IMG/VR virus record: IMGVR_UViG_3300025141_014981
Span: 1 to 64,000 of that record
Length of the DNA stretch: 64,000 bases
Origin: a virus
Reading direction: 5' to 3' (one strand)
Part shown: one piece after another, positions 4,409-64,000 of the stretch
Position numbering within the stretch: position 1 is the stretch's first letter
Layout of the letters: every line of letters begins with the position of its first letter
Made by a program: the position numbers and the translations under genes
Notes under the pieces: model-generated
Seen by the model: only the letters and a program-made list of their open reading frames with translations
What the model was told of the DNA's origin: nothing
Databases searched by the model: none

Positions 4409-5413
4409 CTACCCATTTTTATAGGCATTCAATACTTCTTCAAAGAAGTCAACATACTCCCTTGCACAATTTGCTATAGCAAGATGCTTTACTTTGCCCT
4501 TGCTTAAGTCATACCCATTACGTACTTTCCAAAAGTACTTCTCGCCAAATTCCATCCTTGGTGGGCTTGTGTAATCAGTGAGTTCAAAGTCGAATGGTTC
4601 TTCTTTGATTATTAATGATAGGCCATCTGCAACTTCTTTTGTTCCACCTTCTGATGAACAGATAACAGGGACTTGACAAGCTAGTGCGTCAACAACAACA
4701 TTTGGGCAATGGTCAAGATATGCAAGATGTATAAACCAATCTGCATACATTAACGGAACATATGTTTGTGATGGGGGCACATTGCCCAAGTGAATTTGTG
4801 TAAATCTATCATGATACACTGTCTCTGTGAGAGGTTCAAATTCATCTGAGTTACCCATTGTTATTAAACAACAACGCTCAAACCCATCCCACTTTGTGTA
4901 CTCATCAACGAAACGTATTGCATCATGTAATCGTTTATGAGGTCGACCTGTCCATTGTGATGATGCGACAAATACTCGATGAAAATCATTACGTATATTA
5001 TTCAACCACTCTAAGTCAATATTTGTAGTGTCGAACTTTCTTACAAATGTTCCATTCCTAATAACTCGTGTTGGTATATCATCTCTAGCACCGAAATGTT
5101 TTTCTACAAGCTTTTTATCAAAATCACTTTGAAAGATCACACCGTTGGCTTCGTTATATGCGGTGAATATCCCAATATTATTCTCCATAAAGTTGTCGGG
5201 TTTAAACCATATGCCATCAAGCCTTAAAATTGTAGGGATGTCTTCCGGGAATTCATATGACTCAATAAACACCAAATTAAGATCTGTGTCATCATCGGTG
5301 ACCCCTTGGGTCACCTTATGACCAGTAGCTTCCAATTGTGTTGCTAGCTTGAATCCGAATTGATTCGGCCCGCTAAATGACTTAAAATCAACGTTTGTAA
5401 AACCAACTTTCAT
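4409..5413 (-). CDS. Glycosyltransferase family 4 (GT-B)
   Basis: SGPNQF, RLDG, DHCPNVVVDALACQVPVICS..GGTKE. Confidence 0.85.
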   Translation of the reverse strand: MKVGFTNVDFKSFSGPNQFGFKLATQLEATGHKVTQGVTDDDTDLNLVFIESYEFPEDIPTILRLDGIWFKPDNFMENNIGIFTAYNEANGVIFQSDFDKKLVEKHFGARDDIPTRVIRNGTFVRKFDTTNIDLEWLNNIRNDFHRVFVASSQWTGRPHKRLHDAIRFVDEYTKWDGFERCCLITMGNSDEFEPLTETVYHDRFTQIHLGNVPPSQTYVPLMYADWFIHLAYLDHCPNVVVDALACQVPVICSSEGGTKEVADGLSLIIKEEPFDFELTDYTSPPRMEFGEKYFWKVRNGYDLSKGKVKHLAIANCAREYVDFFEEVLNAYKNG

Positions 5414-6162
5414 TCTTGTAAAAATTCCTTAATAGCAAAGTCAAACCACTCATTATATGTTGTTCGATTGGGTTTGCTATATCTGCCAAACAGTCGTGTA
5501 ATACCCCTACCTAAATGCATAAAGATCGGATTGTCATCATCATCTGTTCCAATATCAACTGTCAAATTCTGATATTTTTCATCCAACTTTTCTCTTAATC
5601 CTGCTTCATTAAACGTGCATGATGCCATAAAGTATTGTAGTTCATTGTCTCTGCAATACTTTGTCAATGAATCACAAACGTCCATGGTGCAGTTTCCGGC
5701 TTCATATACGGGGAACATTGAAACTGCTCTTGCAACTTCAGTATCAACTAGTAGTCCTGAAGAGTGAAGCGCATTTATTCTTGTTGCATCTTGTCGAAAA
5801 CCAATGAGTCTGTTTCCCTCATCCATCTTCTTCATCATATACTTCATCCACCCGGGATGACAAGCAACAACGTCGTTATGACACATGAATACACGCTTTG
5901 AAGAGACATGCTTTAATCCCTCCTCTATTGCGAAAGCATTCGCTTCAGAATTTATTAACTCTGTTGGATTTTGAATCCAGTAAACATTCTTTTTTCCTGT
6001 TAATCCAAGAATGTAATCTTTGTAGCTTGTATTATCTGAGTTTTCAACTATTAGATAACGAAAGTTATAACCATCACTAAATTTTTCAAATGTTGAAATA
6101 GCTAATGCTGTTAGATCTCTTGAATGAAAAGATGGTATTATAATATCAACGACTTCTAGCAT
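5410..6162 (-). CDS. Glycosyltransferase family 2
   Basis: VDIIIPSF, IVENS, FMCHNDV (DxD-like). Confidence 0.7.
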   Translation of the reverse strand: MLEVVDIIIPSFHSRDLTALAISTFEKFSDGYNFRYLIVENSDNTSYKDYILGLTGKKNVYWIQNPTELINSEANAFAIEEGLKHVSSKRVFMCHNDVVACHPGWMKYMMKKMDEGNRLIGFRQDATRINALHSSGLLVDTEVARAVSMFPVYEAGNCTMDVCDSLTKYCRDNELQYFMASCTFNEAGLREKLDEKYQNLTVDIGTDDDDNPIFMHLGRGITRLFGRYSKPNRTTYNEWFDFAIKEFLQE

Positions 6163-33576: not shown

Positions 33577-34329
33577 TTAATTCTGTAAGTATTTTGTTTC
33601 TTTTAACAAATTTTTAATTGCTTCTGAATGTAGTGCTACACTGGCATGTGGAAACCTACCATGTACACCAACTAATATACCTATCACTTCGAATCTCTTA
33701 TTGTATACAGGGCTACCTGAATTACCGCCAGTAACTGGTATAGATAGCTCAATCATATTACTATCTACAGGATATCGTCTAACCATAAAACCAGTTACCT
33801 TTGAAGGAAAATTTCCAAGTGGTGCACCTATAATTGATAATTTTTCACCCATTTCAGGAAGCTCTTTAGCAAGCTTTAGTGGGGTAAATTTTCCATTAGT
33901 ATTATAGATTCTAAAAACACATAAATCAGCAGCATCATCAATATGTAATACTTTACCTTTAAATGTCTCAGTTGTATCTATACTTGTTTGTTTAATCACC
34001 TTTAATCTATTACCATTACTTTTACAAAAATGCTTAACAGACAAACCAATGCTTGAATACTTTCCTTTTTTACTTTTAGAATTTTTTATAACAAAACCAG
34101 TTGCTATTGATGTTCCTGTATTTTCATCACCATCCATGGAAAATAAAACATTTCTTTCTAGCATTACAACAGAATTAAATACTGGATCAACAGTTGTGTC
34201 ATCAATATTAATGACACTATAATGTGAGTTGTTTGTAACGTTCAATGGGTGCTCAGGTTGATCAACTGTAATGCAACTTGTTAATATTAAACTTATTAGG
34301 CACCCAAACATCATTACTACACGTTGCAT
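33577..34329 (-). CDS. Trypsin-like serine protease with lipoprotein signal
   Basis: LTSC lipobox; KHFC, ADL, GGNSGSP catalytic triad. Confidence 0.88.
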   Translation of the reverse strand: MQRVVMMFGCLISLILTSCITVDQPEHPLNVTNNSHYSVINIDDTTVDPVFNSVVMLERNVLFSMDGDENTGTSIATGFVIKNSKSKKGKYSSIGLSVKHFCKSNGNRLKVIKQTSIDTTETFKGKVLHIDDAADLCVFRIYNTNGKFTPLKLAKELPEMGEKLSIIGAPLGNFPSKVTGFMVRRYPVDSNMIELSIPVTGGNSGSPVYNKRFEVIGILVGVHGRFPHASVALHSEAIKNLLKETKYLQN

Positions 34330-50205: not shown

Positions 50206-50946
50206 TTATTTGACTTTATTCTTGATTTGTTCAATATCTTGATCTGTGATTTCAAGATCTTCAATATCTGCTGGGTTGATTCCAAATCGCATATGAACAA
50301 TATTTGCTTCACGCTCTGATAGCTTATTTATAGCTTTTTGTGTTACACTTGTTAGGTCTTTGAATATAACAGTATCTTCTGGCGAAGAAGCCTTTGTGTC
50401 TTCAACAATATCCATGATATCACGACCCTCCGTACCTATAGGCAATTCAAGTGAAATAGTATTTTTTGGCATAGTCATTATCTTATTATAATCACTAATT
50501 GATATATCTATTTCGCCACTCACTTCCTCAGGTGTTGGATCTCTCCCAAGTACAGATCTCAATTTATCAGTAGTCTTAACTATTTTACTTTGTAACAACG
50601 TTGCATACACAGGTCGTCTTATGGTTCTTGACTTATCAGCAATAGCACGAGTAATTCCCTGCCTAATCCACCAAACAACATATGTGCTTAATTTGAAGCC
50701 ATATCTGTAATTGAACTTTTCAATACCACGAATAAGCCCTATAGTACCTTCTTGAATTAAATCATCAAGTGTCAATGAGTTACATTTATACTTTTTTGCA
50801 ACAGATACAACAAGACGAAGATTTGCAGTGATCATTTGCTCTTTTGCTTTTTCATCACCAGCTTCTATTCGTTTTGCTAATTCAACTTCTTGCTTTTTTG
50901 TTAAAAGAGGAACCTTTGAAATTTCTTTAAAGTAATGCTCTAGCAT
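50206..50946 (-). CDS. Sigma-70 family factor with regions 1.2-4.1, lacking 4.2
   Basis: [55 protein letters not shown], then 22 unrelated residues and stop. Confidence 0.92.
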
Positions 50947-62079: not shown

Positions 62080-62233
62080 TTGGGGCAAGTTTATGAAACT
62101 CGGGATAATATGACTTTTGCTCTGCCACTGAGCTACATGAACTGTTATAACTATAAGTCAACAATTCATAGCTGGATTCGAACCAGCGTCCCAAAGTTGG
62201 TTGTTTATGATAACCGTGCCTCTTCGGCCCCAA
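62080..62233 (-). ncRNA. yrlA: YrlA-type Y RNA (unit 3) with complete circularly permuted tRNA-like domain
   Basis: UUGGGGC(C)GA/UUGCCCCAA Ro-binding stem; ACUUU/AAAGU; T arm GCUGG-UUCGAAU-CCAGC; closed acceptor-like stem AUGAAUUGUU/AACAGUUCAU; D arm GCUC-AGUGGCA-GAGC. Confidence 0.9.
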
Positions 62234-62495: not shown

Positions 62496-62678
62496 TCAAT
62501 TAAGTTGTTTTTTATACTGCTCAACAATTCCGGAATCAATATCACATCTTTGATGTTTACAAGCTGGCATCTTACAATTTATCCTCTGGTTACCATTATA
62601 AGTATTACATGCACAACAACCCCACCCTGGCATCAGGTTTGGATGCTCGAGCTTTATGCACTTTTCATGTTTTTTCAT
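62496..62678 (-). CDS. Small Cys-rich (zinc-finger-like) protein
   Basis: GWGCCAC..N...R..C...C.H.RC; ATGA overlap. Confidence 0.6.
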   Translation of the reverse strand: MKKHEKCIKLEHPNLMPGWGCCACNTYNGNQRINCKMPACKHQRCDIDSGIVEQYKKQLN

Positions 62679-63220
62679 AGCTTATTTGTTGCACCACGTT
62701 TCAAAAGAAGCTCAAGAATCTTTTCTTCATCACCACCAGACTTAAACATCTCAGCTAGCGTATGTGCAAGCTCAGCTTCATCAGAGTCGAATTCATTAAG
62801 TGAATTAACTCTCAAAGTCTTCTCTTTAATCACAGATGCCAACTTTGTAGCTTCTTCTACAAGAGCTGCTGCTCTTTTCTCATCGTTATTAATTTCTGCT
62901 TGAAGACTAGCTACTTTTCGTTGTCTAGGTGACAAGCCATTATATGTATCATCAATAAGCTCTAAGCAGGTATGTGTTGTTACCTTTACTATTGAACCAA
63001 CCTTTAACTTAGTACAAGAAAATTGATTAAGCACAGGCATTTCTACTATTTTATATTTTGTAAAACGACCCCATGCTTTATTATCTATGCTTATACATTC
63101 AAGAATAGTTCCCTTTGAAAGTTGCGCCACTGTATTATCACAATCAAGTTTGACATCATAATAATTTGGTGAACGCTTAGCTCGGTATAAGCAACCTACA
63201 ATTGCATCTGAAAATTTCAT
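62675..63220 (-). CDS. Hypothetical protein with C-terminal coiled coil
   Basis: AAGGA RBS; downstream of promoter 63248-63276. Confidence 0.7.
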   Translation of the reverse strand: MKFSDAIVGCLYRAKRSPNYYDVKLDCDNTVAQLSKGTILECISIDNKAWGRFTKYKIVEMPVLNQFSCTKLKVGSIVKVTTHTCLELIDDTYNGLSPRQRKVASLQAEINNDEKRAAALVEEATKLASVIKEKTLRVNSLNEFDSDEAELAHTLAEMFKSGGDEEKILELLLKRGATNKL

Positions 63221-63247: not shown

Positions 63248-63276
63248 ATTATATCATTGATTCAATCAATGTTTCA
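63248..63276 (-). promoter_or_regulatory. TGAAACA-N16-TATAAT promoter
   Basis: Exact motif match with TGn extension. Confidence 0.82.
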
Positions 63277-63293
63277 CTTGATAATAGCTTGTT

Positions 63294-63375
63294 TGGTGGA
63301 TCGCCTGTGACTTGAACACAGAGACTACGAGGTGCTCCTACCAGCCTTCTACACGCTGTCCGACCATCACGACCC
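63294..63375 (-). ncRNA. Atypical tRNA-like RNA with alanine identity elements and encoded CCA
   Basis: GGGUCGU/GCGAUCC acceptor (G1-C72, G2-C71, G3.U70), A73-CCA, CUGUG-UUCAAGU-CACAG T arm; no D stem, no canonical anticodon loop. Confidence 0.8.
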
Positions 63376-63639
63376 TTATTTATTGTTAGGATTATCTTCA
63401 TGATCTTCCCATTCACCTTCAAAGACAATTTCATCTAAATTTTTTGGAAGACCATCAAATTTATCTGTAGCAAGCTAACCAAACCAATTGTCATCTATTA
63501 TCTTATAGTCATATTTAATATTAAGAATATTAAGCAATTCAAATGGATGAAGATAGTCGTGCTGATAAACACATTTTCCATTAATAAATATGCCATAATA
63601 TTCACCATCACTAGTTATTGTTATTTTTTTATCTGTCAT
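63376..63639 (-). pseudogene. 87-codon ORF interrupted by in-frame TAG at 63475-63477
   Basis: MTDKKITITSDGEYYGIFINGKC...DDNWFG*LATDKFDGLPKNLDEIVFEG...NNK; TAATG-coupled to the upstream gene. Confidence 0.5.
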
Positions 63640-63851
63640 TATTTTCTCTCAAATTCACATTTGACTTCTTTCTTCTTCTCTTTTGGTTCACAACAGTAAA
63701 TTATAGCGCCCTTGTCTTTGACAACCATTCTTGTTCCATGTGGACAATAGTCTACACCATGTAAGACACGAACACTACGAACAACACCATACCCACTAGG
63801 GATATAGCATGCTGAAATCAATAAAGTTGCTAGTAAAATAAGCGTTTTCAT
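63639..63851 (-). CDS. Putative lipoprotein
   Basis: MKTLILLATLLISAC lipobox. Confidence 0.65.
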   Translation of the reverse strand: MKTLILLATLLISACYIPSGYGVVRSVRVLHGVDYCPHGTRMVVKDKGAIIYCCEPKEKKKEVKCEFERK

Positions 63852-64000
63852 TGTTTTATTTGTCCCATTTAATTTTTCTACCTTGTACCCAACCTAATGC
63901 TAACCAATGATTAAGTTTATTTTTTTTAATTCTTTTTGACTCTCTTAAGTTTGTGTTAAAGATCCAACACGTACCATATTGTGAATTTTTCTTACCTTGT

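What the first reader, a model, noticed from the sequence alone, without database searches (positions are those of the whole stretch)
63294..63375. CCA-ended, alanine-identity tRNA mimic with no D stem, resembling a tmRNA tRNA-like domain without its message
Seen: G1-C72, G2-C71, G3.U70, A73-CCA and a canonical T arm. The 47-nt middle has no D stem and folds either as a 21-nt open loop plus an AGGCUG/UAGUCU helix capped by AGG-AGCA-CCU, or as a CAGC/GCUG arm around GUGUAGAAG plus a long variable arm. Known: G3.U70 with A73 specifies AlaRS charging independent of the anticodon, and tmRNA has this acceptor with a stemless D loop. Inference: a chargeable Ala donor or decoy, for example an SmpB sponge or tag-less ribosome-rescue RNA, an Ala-tailing or cell-envelope Ala donor, or a tRNase decoy. 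It lies 0.9 kb upstream of the Y RNA array.
Basis: partly seen in the sequence, partly recalled or inferred. Interest (0 to 1): 0.8.

Follow-up and report, generated by a model that had tools for sequence, protein, structure and literature searches.

The report
Anticodon-less alanine tRNA mimic in phage
A large uncultured marine phage carries, among its tRNA genes, a conserved 82-base RNA that keeps the alanine-accepting half of a tRNA but has a long hairpin in place of the codon-reading half; it is built like the tag-less tmRNA fragment of mycobacteriophage DS6A, is not detectably related to tmRNA, and has no tested function.

Summary
Window 63294-63375 (minus strand) has a 7-bp acceptor stem with G3.U70, A73, an encoded CCA and a canonical T arm, but no D stem.

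It is not decay. A collinear marine phage contig (L004) has an 82-nt homologue with no indels. All 25 proposed pairs form in both copies and 8 changed on both sides. G1-C72, G2-C71, G3.U70 and A73 stay fixed while acceptor pairs 4-7 all turned over.

The conserved fold is a 7-nt D-loop-like linker plus one long irregular arm that abuts the T arm. No anticodon-type loop is conserved, so it is not a decoder.

The layout matches the published TLD-only tmRNA of phage DS6A. However, the Rfam tmRNA model scores the DS6A RNA at 43 bits and gives this element nothing.

The same phage has an uncalled tRNA-Ala(UGC) without a proper D stem and with a nearly identical acceptor stem. This suggests the element derives from tRNA-Ala.

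Best reading: a processed, probably alanylated, non-decoding tRNA mimic. Its target is unknown. It is a new variant of a known but unexplained kind (DS6A TLD-only tmRNA, T5 tRNA-like stable RNAs). Earlier notes of this scan describe similar mimics on other phage DNA.

The parts
63294..63375 (-). Whole 82-nt tRNA-shaped RNA gene (alignment column c = window 63376 - c)
   Evidence: homologue at L004 4748-4829(+), same length, no indels
63369..63375 (-). Acceptor stem, 5' strand (positions 1-7, GGGUCGU)
   Evidence: Pairs with 63298-63304. Pairs 1-3 including G3.U70 are invariant; pairs 4-6 are compensatory and pair 7 changed on one side in L004
63362..63368 (-). 7-nt single-stranded linker GAUGGUC, a D-loop substitute; its GG acts as the G18/G19 equivalent
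   Evidence: Column 12 is G here and A in L004, changing together with T-loop position 56 (C here, U in L004). This keeps a 19:56-type elbow pair
63322..63361 (-). Long irregular arm (columns 15-54): helices 15-18/51-54, 20-22/47-49, 24-25/43-44, 31-33/40-42; 5-nt NGAAR bulge; non-conserved 6-nt apical loop
   Evidence: RNAalifold consensus. Three compensatory pairs and no broken pair; -21.8/-22.0 kcal/mol in the two copies. Shuffle control: 19 of 2000
63305..63321 (-). T arm: 5-bp stem and 7-nt loop UUCAAGU, abutting the long arm with no variable region
   Evidence: pair 50-64 is compensatory in L004
63298..63304 (-). Acceptor stem, 3' strand (positions 66-72, includes U70)
63294..63297 (-). 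Discriminator A73 and encoded CCA (A-CAA in L004)
63248..63277 (-). Conserved extended -10 promoter (GTGAAA, 18-nt spacer, TATAAT) of the next gene. It marks the downstream limit of the RNA's transcription unit and is not part of the RNA
   Evidence: same motif in L004 at 4934-4963
62675..63220 (-). ORF181, a conserved syntenic neighbour of unknown function (52% identical in L004); no link to the RNA is shown

Best explanation
This is a functional, non-decoding tRNA mimic. It keeps the top half of an alanine tRNA: a 7-bp acceptor stem with G1-C72, G2-C71, G3.U70 and A73, a 5-bp T stem with a T loop, and a 19:56-type elbow contact made by a 7-nt D-loop-like linker. The D, anticodon and variable arms are replaced by one long irregular hairpin.

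Shown: the RNA and this fold are conserved between two diverged phages, and no anticodon-type loop is conserved.

Inferred: it is transcribed with the tRNA cluster and released by RNase P and 3' trimming. Its end is completed by the phage CCA-adding enzyme where CCA is not encoded. Host AlaRS charges it with alanine, because AlaRS needs only a G3.U70 acceptor helix. It then acts through the proteins that read the top half of a (charged) tRNA or of the tmRNA tRNA-like domain, such as AlaRS, EF-Tu, SmpB or an unknown phage or host factor. It would do so as a competitor or adaptor, not in decoding.

Its most likely origin is a duplicate of the phage's own tRNA-Ala. It then converged on the architecture of a TLD-only tmRNA.
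For: A homologue sits at the syntenic site of a collinear phage (Ro60 81%, ORF181 52% amino-acid identity; about 70% DNA identity in coding regions). The flanking spacers cannot be aligned.

The two copies are both 82 nt with no indels. All 25 proposed pairs form in both copies, 8 changed on both sides, and slid controls give 0. Of the 26 differing columns, 17 lie in pairs and none breaks a pair.

Pairs 1-3 and A73 are invariant while pairs 4-7 all changed.

No hairpin with a 7-nt loop is shared by the two copies, and the apical loop has 6 nt with 4 of 6 positions different.

The alanine descriptor is highly specific.

The same phage has a 76-nt tRNA-Ala(UGC) without a proper D stem. Its acceptor stem is identical at 6 of 7 pairs and it has A19:U56.

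The element lies inside a tRNA cluster, 10 nt after tRNA-Trp in L004, with no promoter or terminator of its own. The phage encodes a CCA-adding enzyme, RNA ligases, an RNase T-like exonuclease and a Thg1-like protein.

Established knowledge: AlaRS charges minihelices that carry G3.U70, and RNase P cleaves acceptor/T-arm minihelices.

Published precedent: the DS6A TLD-only tmRNA; a similar molecule inhibits tmRNA (PMC4131195, PMC11915505).
Against: Only two family members were found, so the covariation rests on a single pairwise comparison. The long arm alone is modestly supported (at least 3 compensatory pairs in 19 of 2000 column shuffles; alifold energy p about 0.11).

There is no expression, processing or charging data. 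No RNA run holds the locus.

L004 encodes CAA rather than CCA.

No partner protein was identified, and there is no SmpB in the 76 kb available.

Conservation of G3.U70 in two sequences could be inheritance from a tRNA-Ala ancestor rather than selection for charging.
Confidence: 0.55

Rival explanations
1. It is a true tmRNA derivative (a TLD-only tmRNA like that of phage DS6A). It binds host SmpB and blocks or hijacks trans-translation.
For: The size and layout are nearly the same as the DS6A RNA: 7-bp G3.U70 acceptor, 48-nt versus 47-nt middle, stemless D loop, long irregular arm, T arm, A73. The linker GAUGGUCGGAC loosely resembles the tmRNA D-loop consensus seen. A published TLD-like molecule inhibits tmRNA (PMC4131195).
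Against: The Rfam tmRNA model gives no hit at E<=10 in a 451-nt search. The DS6A RNA scores 43.2 bits (E=5e-16) in a search of the same size. ARAGORN finds no tmRNA even at a 60% threshold. In the tmRNA consensus the base of helix 2a is GAC against GGA, which I read as non-Watson-Crick G.A pairs. Here it is an ordinary GGAC/GUCU helix that directly abuts the T stem. The acceptor stem matches the phage's own tRNA-Ala-like gene. My model R1 scores the DS6A RNA no better than ordinary tRNAs (27.7 versus 27.5 bits).
Confidence: 0.12
2. It is only processing punctuation or a stabilising tRNA-like end: an RNase P/RNase Z site that cuts the polycistronic transcript. The alanine identity would then be an inherited relic without function.
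For: It sits between transcription units, directly after a stop codon in G000 and 10 nt after tRNA-Trp in L004, and has no promoter of its own.
Against: Punctuation needs only the acceptor/T-arm stack. It does not explain the conserved 40-nt arm with compensatory changes, the conserved linker and bulge, the 19:56 covariation, or the fixed pairs 1-3 and A73 while pairs 4-7 turned over.
Confidence: 0.13
3. It is a decaying tRNA pseudogene (simple decay of a tRNA-Ala or a type II tRNA).
For: It is not called by tRNA finders. The single-sequence fold is not better than shuffles. There are local similarities to the phage tRNA-Leu(UAG) anticodon arm and to the tRNA-Ala-like gene.
Against: The homologue has identical length, no broken pair and 8 double changes, at a divergence where the flanking spacers cannot be aligned.
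Confidence: 0.04
4. It is a rewired but decoding tRNA, like the D-hairpin-less phage tRNA-Arg(UCU) family noted elsewhere in this scan.
For: Same length class (82 nt). ARAGORN at an 80% threshold forces a 'tRNA-Leu(aag)' on the L004 copy.
Against: No hairpin with a 7-nt loop is shared by the two copies. The forced ARAGORN loop has neither U33 nor a purine at 37, and that fold is unstable in the window copy (-5.7 kcal/mol). The apical loop has 6 nt and is not conserved.
Confidence: 0.04
5. It is a component or client of the neighbouring Ro60/Y RNA system, for example a tRNA-shaped cargo or substrate without its own Ro-binding stem.
For: The order tRNAs - element - ORF181 - Y RNA array - Ro60 is conserved in both phages. 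[quoted passage not shown]
Against: No homologue was found within about 6 kb of Ro60 in 80 other Ro60-bearing viral loci or in the complete relative G001. The element has no Ro-binding helix and no YrlA hit. A promoter and a protein gene separate it from the array.
Confidence: 0.08

Closest known systems
TLD-only ('Standard, no CDS') tmRNA of mycobacteriophage DS6A (Hudson, Lau and Williams 2014, PMC4131195; tmRNA database 2025, PMC11915505); located here at JN698994 28478-28560
   Same: Phage-encoded and about 82-83 nt. It has a 7-bp acceptor stem with G3.U70 and A73, a stemless D region, one long irregular arm in place of the rest of the molecule, a canonical T arm and no tag reading frame.
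   Different: The DS6A RNA is a recognisable tmRNA homologue (43.2 bits with RF00023) and this element is not (no hit). The linker is 7 nt here against about 15. The arm abuts the T stem with a Watson-Crick/GU helix, not the GAC/GGA base of helix 2a. The acceptor stem matches the phage's own tRNA-Ala-like gene.
Phage T5 RNA1, RNA2 and RNA3 (GenBank AY543070 misc_RNA: 'tRNA-like stable RNA with unknown functions', 'putative tRNA-like RNA'); T4 stable RNAs rnaC/rnaD are cited from memory and earlier notes and were not checked here
   Same: They are embedded in a phage tRNA cluster, have acceptor/T-arm ends, no usable anticodon and no known function. T5 RNA3 (73 nt) has the same order: acceptor, linker, hairpin with a 6-nt loop, T arm, ACCA.
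   Different: None of the T5 RNAs carries the alanine identity set, and there is no sequence similarity. T5 annotates its RNAs as stable RNAs; this element has no RNA data.
Canonical tRNA-Ala / alanine minihelix substrates of AlaRS
   Same: G1-C72, G2-C71, G3.U70 and A73, a 12-bp acceptor/T-arm stack, and a T loop with a 19:56 partner.
   Different: No D stem and no anticodon arm. The tRNA model RF00005 gives no hit.
D-arm-lacking mitochondrial tRNAs
   Same: A short D-replacement loop joins the acceptor stem to an extended arm.
   Different: Those tRNAs keep a 7-nt anticodon loop and decode. This RNA has none, and ARAGORN in mitochondrial mode does not call it.
YrlA-type Y RNAs (RF02553; Chen et al. 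2014, PMC4201824)
   Same: tRNA mimicry encoded next to a phage Ro60 gene.
   Different: YrlA is permuted (T arm, acceptor-like stem, D arm) and carries a Ro-binding stem. This element has the normal order, no D arm, no Ro-binding stem and no YrlA hit.

Membership tests
Canonical tRNA (Rfam RF00005) | 7-bp acceptor stem and 5-bp T stem with a 7-nt T loop | tested here: met
Canonical tRNA (Rfam RF00005) | D arm (3-4 bp stem) | tested here: not met
   Only a 7-nt linker precedes the long arm in both copies
Canonical tRNA (Rfam RF00005) | Anticodon arm with a 7-nt loop, U33 and a purine at 37 | tested here: not met
   No shared hairpin with a 7-nt loop; the forced ARAGORN loop lacks U33 and R37
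Canonical tRNA (Rfam RF00005) | Model score at or above the gathering threshold (29 bits), or an ARAGORN call | tested here: not met
   No RF00005 hit at E<=10; ARAGORN negative
tmRNA, including TLD-only forms (Rfam RF00023) | Alanine acceptor: G3.U70 and A73 with a 3' CCA | tested here: met
   L004 has CAA in place of CCA
tmRNA, including TLD-only forms (Rfam RF00023) | T arm plus a stemless D loop that contacts the T loop | tested here: met
   7-nt linker; 12:62 (19:56-type) covariation
tmRNA, including TLD-only forms (Rfam RF00023) | Sequence/structure homology to the tmRNA tRNA-like domain (D-loop consensus, GAC/GGA base of helix 2a) | tested here: not met
   No RF00023 hit at E<=10 in a 451-nt search. 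Positive control: the DS6A TLD-only RNA scores 43.2 bits. ARAGORN tmRNA mode is negative at a 60% threshold
tmRNA, including TLD-only forms (Rfam RF00023) | mRNA-like domain with a resume codon and tag ORF (absent by definition in TLD-only forms) | tested here: not met
   The middle is a closed 40-nt hairpin
tmRNA, including TLD-only forms (Rfam RF00023) | Binding to SmpB | not testable with these tools
   No SmpB gene in G000 or G001; host unknown
YrlA / Y RNA (Rfam RF02553) | Ro60-binding stem and permuted T / acceptor-like / D module order | tested here: not met
   The YrlA hit lies at 62115-62195, not at the element. The element has normal tRNA order and no D arm
Phage tRNA-like stable RNAs (T5 RNA1-3 type; an operational class) | Lies within a phage tRNA cluster, has acceptor/T-arm ends and no usable anticodon | tested here: met
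Phage tRNA-like stable RNAs (T5 RNA1-3 type; an operational class) | Accumulates as a stable processed RNA | not testable with these tools
   No RNA run holds the locus
AlaRS substrate (alanine identity set) | G3.U70 in a 7-bp acceptor helix, A73 and G2-C71 | tested here: met
   Present and invariant in both copies while pairs 4-7 changed; actual charging was not tested

The most novel reading that the evidence does not exclude
Large marine phages evolved an alanine-charged, anticodon-less tRNA mimic from their own tRNA-Ala, independently of tmRNA. It converged on the shape of the tmRNA tRNA-like domain. It acts in trans on host translation quality control (SmpB/EF-Tu-dependent entry into stalled ribosomes, or titration of these factors), or it donates alanine outside normal decoding. 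If so, the many anticodon-less alanine mimics now turning up in unrelated phages would be one functional class of translation-targeting RNAs.
Probability: 0.2. Interest if true: 0.8.

Novelty: new variant of a known kind. Interest (0 to 1): 0.55.

Why it matters
Phage tRNA clusters have long been annotated with tRNA-like stable RNAs of unknown function, for example in T5. One phage (DS6A) is known to carry a tag-less tmRNA fragment.

This element gives a compact, conserved case with a clear and cheap test. It keeps exactly the nucleotides that AlaRS reads and discards everything the ribosome needs for decoding. It also seems to derive from a tRNA rather than from tmRNA.

If it is charged, it would show that phages repeatedly build non-decoding alanyl-RNAs. 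It would also make their target (SmpB, EF-Tu, AlaRS, a transferase or a defence nuclease) directly testable.

It sits in an island of RNA-end repair genes (CCA-adding enzyme, Thg1-like protein, RNA ligases, Ro60 with Y RNAs). Its biology may therefore bear on tRNA-directed phage-host conflict.

Tried and rejected
- ARAGORN-like cloverleaf: -5.7 kcal/mol in the window copy.
- Stop-codon recoding or a suppressor tRNA, prompted by an in-frame TAG just upstream: the standard code already covers 86% of the contig, and the element contains no CUA, UUA or UCA in a loop.
- Derivation from the phage tRNA-Leu(UAG): the local similarity is not supported by the homologue.
- K-turn reading of the NGAAR bulge: the opposite strand has no unpaired G.A partners (by inspection).

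Searches for more members, all empty or at chance level:
- IMG/VR exact patterns.
- ORF181-based scans of IMG/VR.
- GenBank phages by blastn and tblastn.
- Covariance model R1 over G000, G001 and 80 Ro60 loci.
- Genome contigs pattern: 17 hits, which is the chance expectation, and none scores with R1.
- This scan's look-alike index.

Other dead ends:
- No RNA holder is listed among the sequencing runs. Four DNA runs showed only the same strain, with no variant letters.
- ORF181 has no family and no informative fold match.
- No SmpB, FemAB, tRNA_SAD or Pth in the 76 kb.
- The AcrIIIA1 paper concerns host t(m)RNA fragments and is not relevant.
The L004 record is not held for extension. I therefore could not fetch the rest of the Tara contig or the other five contigs that encode the identical ORF181.

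Full report
**What is there**

On the minus strand, window 63294-63375 reads as an 82-nt RNA. It has a 7-bp acceptor stem (G1-C72, G2-C71, G3.U70, U4-A69, C5-G68, G6-C67, U7.G66), A73 and an encoded CCA. Its T arm is CUGUG/UUCAAGU/CACAG. The 47-nt middle cannot form a D stem. ARAGORN and the Rfam tRNA, tmRNA and YrlA models do not call it, even at E<=10. The folding energy of the single sequence is no better than that of shuffles (z = -0.25).

**Context**

The window belongs to a 76,289-bp IMG/VR viral contig. It is about 40% complete, has 35% GC and uses the standard code. All genes in this region lie on the minus strand. In transcription order the region holds:
- tRNA-Met (two), tRNA-Cys, tRNA-Phe, tRNA-Leu(UAG), tRNA-Trp and tRNA-Gly (two);
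- small ORFs and a homing-endonuclease remnant;
- the element;
- a promoter and ORF181 (unknown function);
- four Y-RNA-like units (YrlA hit);
- Ro60 (TROVE + vWA domains) and a Thg1-like protein;
- further downstream, tRNA-Arg and tRNA-Ile.

Nearby genes encode a CCA-adding enzyme, Rnl1, a second RNA ligase, an RNase T-like exonuclease and a SpoU methylase. The element therefore sits in a tRNA and RNA-repair island. It has no promoter or terminator of its own. The only strong promoter motif lies just downstream and serves ORF181.

**A homologue, and what it shows**

ORF181 has only two protein clusters in 5.8 billion proteins. The second one led to a 67.7-kb Tara contig, L004. L004 is collinear with this phage: about 70% DNA identity in coding regions, Ro60 81% and ORF181 52% amino-acid identity.

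Directly upstream of its ORF181, and 10 nt after its tRNA-Trp, L004 has an 82-nt homologue at 4748-4829. The two copies align without a gap and differ at 26 columns. The surrounding spacers cannot be aligned apart from the ORF181 promoter.

RNAalifold keeps the acceptor and T arms. It folds the middle as a 7-nt linker (GAUGRUC) followed by one long irregular arm (columns 15-54) that abuts the T stem. The arm consists of helices 15-18/51-54, 20-22/47-49, 24-25/43-44 and 31-33/40-42. It has a 1x1 A.A loop, a 5-nt NGAAR bulge and a 6-nt apical loop that differs at 4 of 6 positions.

Compensatory double changes occur at 4-75, 5-74, 6-73, 18-51, 22-47, 33-40 and 56-70. Pair 7-72 changed on one side. 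In addition, linker column 12 (G in the window, A in L004) changes together with T-loop position 56 (C in the window, U in L004). This keeps a G19:C56-type elbow pair.

With that pair included, all 25 pairs form in both copies and 8 changed on both sides. Structures slid by 1-3 columns give none. Seventeen of the 26 differences lie in pairs. The other nine lie in loops, the bulge or the CCA.

For the 47-nt middle alone, at least 3 compensatory pairs arose in 19 of 2000 column shuffles. That is moderate support, limited by having only two sequences. This fold is the only one tested that is stable in both copies (-21.8 and -22.0 kcal/mol).

**Alanine identity**

G1-C72, G2-C71, G3.U70 and A73 are unchanged between the copies. 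The other four acceptor pairs all changed.

I wrote a sequence-independent descriptor: GGG at positions 1-3, a 7-bp stem with U70, C71 and C72, A73, and a T arm. I ran it over about 1 Mb, both strands, of Ro60-bearing phage DNA. It returned 17 hits:
- 14 canonical tRNA-Ala genes;
- the two copies of the element;
- one further uncalled locus in this same phage, G000 70503-70578(-).

That locus is a 76-nt tRNA-Ala(UGC). CUUGCAA sits exactly at positions 32-38, and it has a 5-nt variable loop and a T arm. In the normal register only 1 of 4 D-stem pairs can form; a slipped 3-bp alternative with two G.U pairs is possible. It has A19 with U56. Rfam gives it only 16 bits, against the tRNA-Sec model.

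Its acceptor stem is identical to the element's at 6 of 7 pairs. These pairs differ completely between the two phages' elements. So within this genome the element and the tRNA-Ala-like gene either share recent ancestry or are kept alike.

Without identity constraints, the descriptor gives 0.85 hits per shuffled genome.

**Not a decoder**

No hairpin with a 7-nt loop is shared by the two copies. ARAGORN at an 80% threshold forces a 'tRNA-Leu(aag)' on L004, but that loop has neither U33 nor a purine at 37. The rival raised by earlier notes of this scan, a rewired but decoding phage tRNA, is therefore not supported here.

**Comparison with tmRNA**

Earlier notes of this scan pointed to a published precedent, which I checked. 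Hudson, Lau and Williams list 'Mycobacterium phage DS6A (TLD only)'. They state that a similar molecule strongly inhibits tmRNA, perhaps by titrating SmpB (PMC4131195). The 2025 tmRNA database lists CDS-less forms (PMC11915505).

I located the DS6A RNA, which is unannotated in GenBank, at JN698994 28478-28560. It has a 7-bp G3.U70 acceptor stem, a 48-nt middle, a T arm and A73. That is almost the size and layout of this element.

As a positive control, the Rfam tmRNA model scores the DS6A RNA at 43.2 bits (E=5e-16) in a 451-nt search. The same search around this element returns no tmRNA or tRNA hit. My model R1 scores the DS6A RNA at 27.7 bits, the same as ordinary tRNAs (27.5 bits).

So the element is built like a TLD-only tmRNA but fails the homology test. 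I do not file it as a tmRNA.

**Other precedents**

The T5 GenBank record annotates RNA1 and RNA2 ('tRNA-like stable RNA with unknown functions') and RNA3 ('putative tRNA-like RNA') inside its tRNA cluster. RNA3 has the same order of parts, but none of the three is alanine-type.

Earlier notes of this scan describe anticodon-less alanine mimics in other phages: an N4-like marine phage, a T5-like Klebsiella phage, and others. I treat these as leads only. I found no sequence relative of this element among them.

**Mechanism**

Shown:
- a conserved, structured, non-decoding RNA gene with an intact alanine identity set and a tRNA elbow.

Inferred from established enzymology:
- release by RNase P, which needs an acceptor/T-arm stack;
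- 3' maturation with the phage CCA-adding enzyme;
- charging by AlaRS, which accepts G3.U70 minihelices.

Speculative:
- the target. My order of preference is: (1) competition or adaptor action on factors that read a charged top half (EF-Tu, SmpB, AlaRS, or a phage or host protein); (2) processing punctuation only; (3) a link to Ro60.

**Limits**

- The family has only two members.
- No RNA data exist for the locus.
- The contig is incomplete.

**Verdict**

The element is a new variant of a known but unexplained kind. Interest: 0.55.

Noticed in passing
L002 8503-8578 (-) = G000 70503-70578, beyond the window end: Uncalled 76-nt tRNA-Ala(UGC), 19 nt downstream of tRNA-Cys. The anticodon loop CUUGCAA sits exactly at positions 32-38, and it has A19:U56. 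Only 1 of 4 D-stem pairs forms in the normal register. Its acceptor stem is nearly identical to the element's. ARAGORN misses it and Rfam gives only 16 bits (tRNA-Sec model). It may be the phage's working tRNA-Ala with a degenerate D arm.
   Followed up: partly
window 63379-63639 (-): The small ORF just upstream of the element has an in-frame TAG after 54 codons and continues in frame for 32 more codons, ending 3 nt before the element. There is no genome-wide recoding (the standard code gives 86% coverage). It could be two ORFs, a broken gene or local readthrough.
   Followed up: partly
window 63376-64000 and L002 2001-2832 (G000 63376-64832): Compared with L004, where the element follows tRNA-Trp by 10 nt, this phage has about 1.4 kb inserted. 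The insert holds two tRNA-Gly genes, small ORFs and a 70-aa remnant that matches homing endonucleases (phrog_314) at G000 63945-64157.
   Followed up: partly
window 63248-63277 (-) and L004 4934-4963 (+): The same extended -10 promoter (GTGAAA, 18-nt spacer, TG-TATAAT, preceded by a conserved GTGAAACATTGAT) stands in front of ORF181 in both phages. It is probably a phage promoter class, and the phage encodes its own sigma-70-like factor at 50206-50946.
   Followed up: no
L004 6012-6085 (+): ARAGORN calls a 'tRNA-Asp(atc)' here. It overlaps a YrlA-like hit (6053-6116) in the Y RNA array upstream of Ro60, so it is probably a Y RNA tRNA-like module miscalled as a tRNA.
   Followed up: no
L003 599-679 (+): An 81-nt type II tRNA-like gene with a CUUGAAA loop (anticodon UGA, Ser) and a long variable arm. 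ARAGORN misses it and it scores 36.6 bits with the tRNA-Sec model. It is probably an unusual phage tRNA-Ser.
   Followed up: no
L027 1193-1264 (-): An uncalled 72-nt tRNA-like gene with an AUCCGAA loop (anticodon CCG, Arg), a miniature 3-bp D hairpin and an encoded CCA.
   Followed up: no
L085 28478-28560 (+) (Mycobacterium phage DS6A, JN698994): The published TLD-only tmRNA is not annotated in the GenBank record. It lies between gp33 and gp34.
   Followed up: yes
window 34247-34306 (+): A weak, AT-rich acceptor/T-arm descriptor hit on the opposite strand. It is consistent with the chance expectation of about 0.85 per genome.
   Followed up: no
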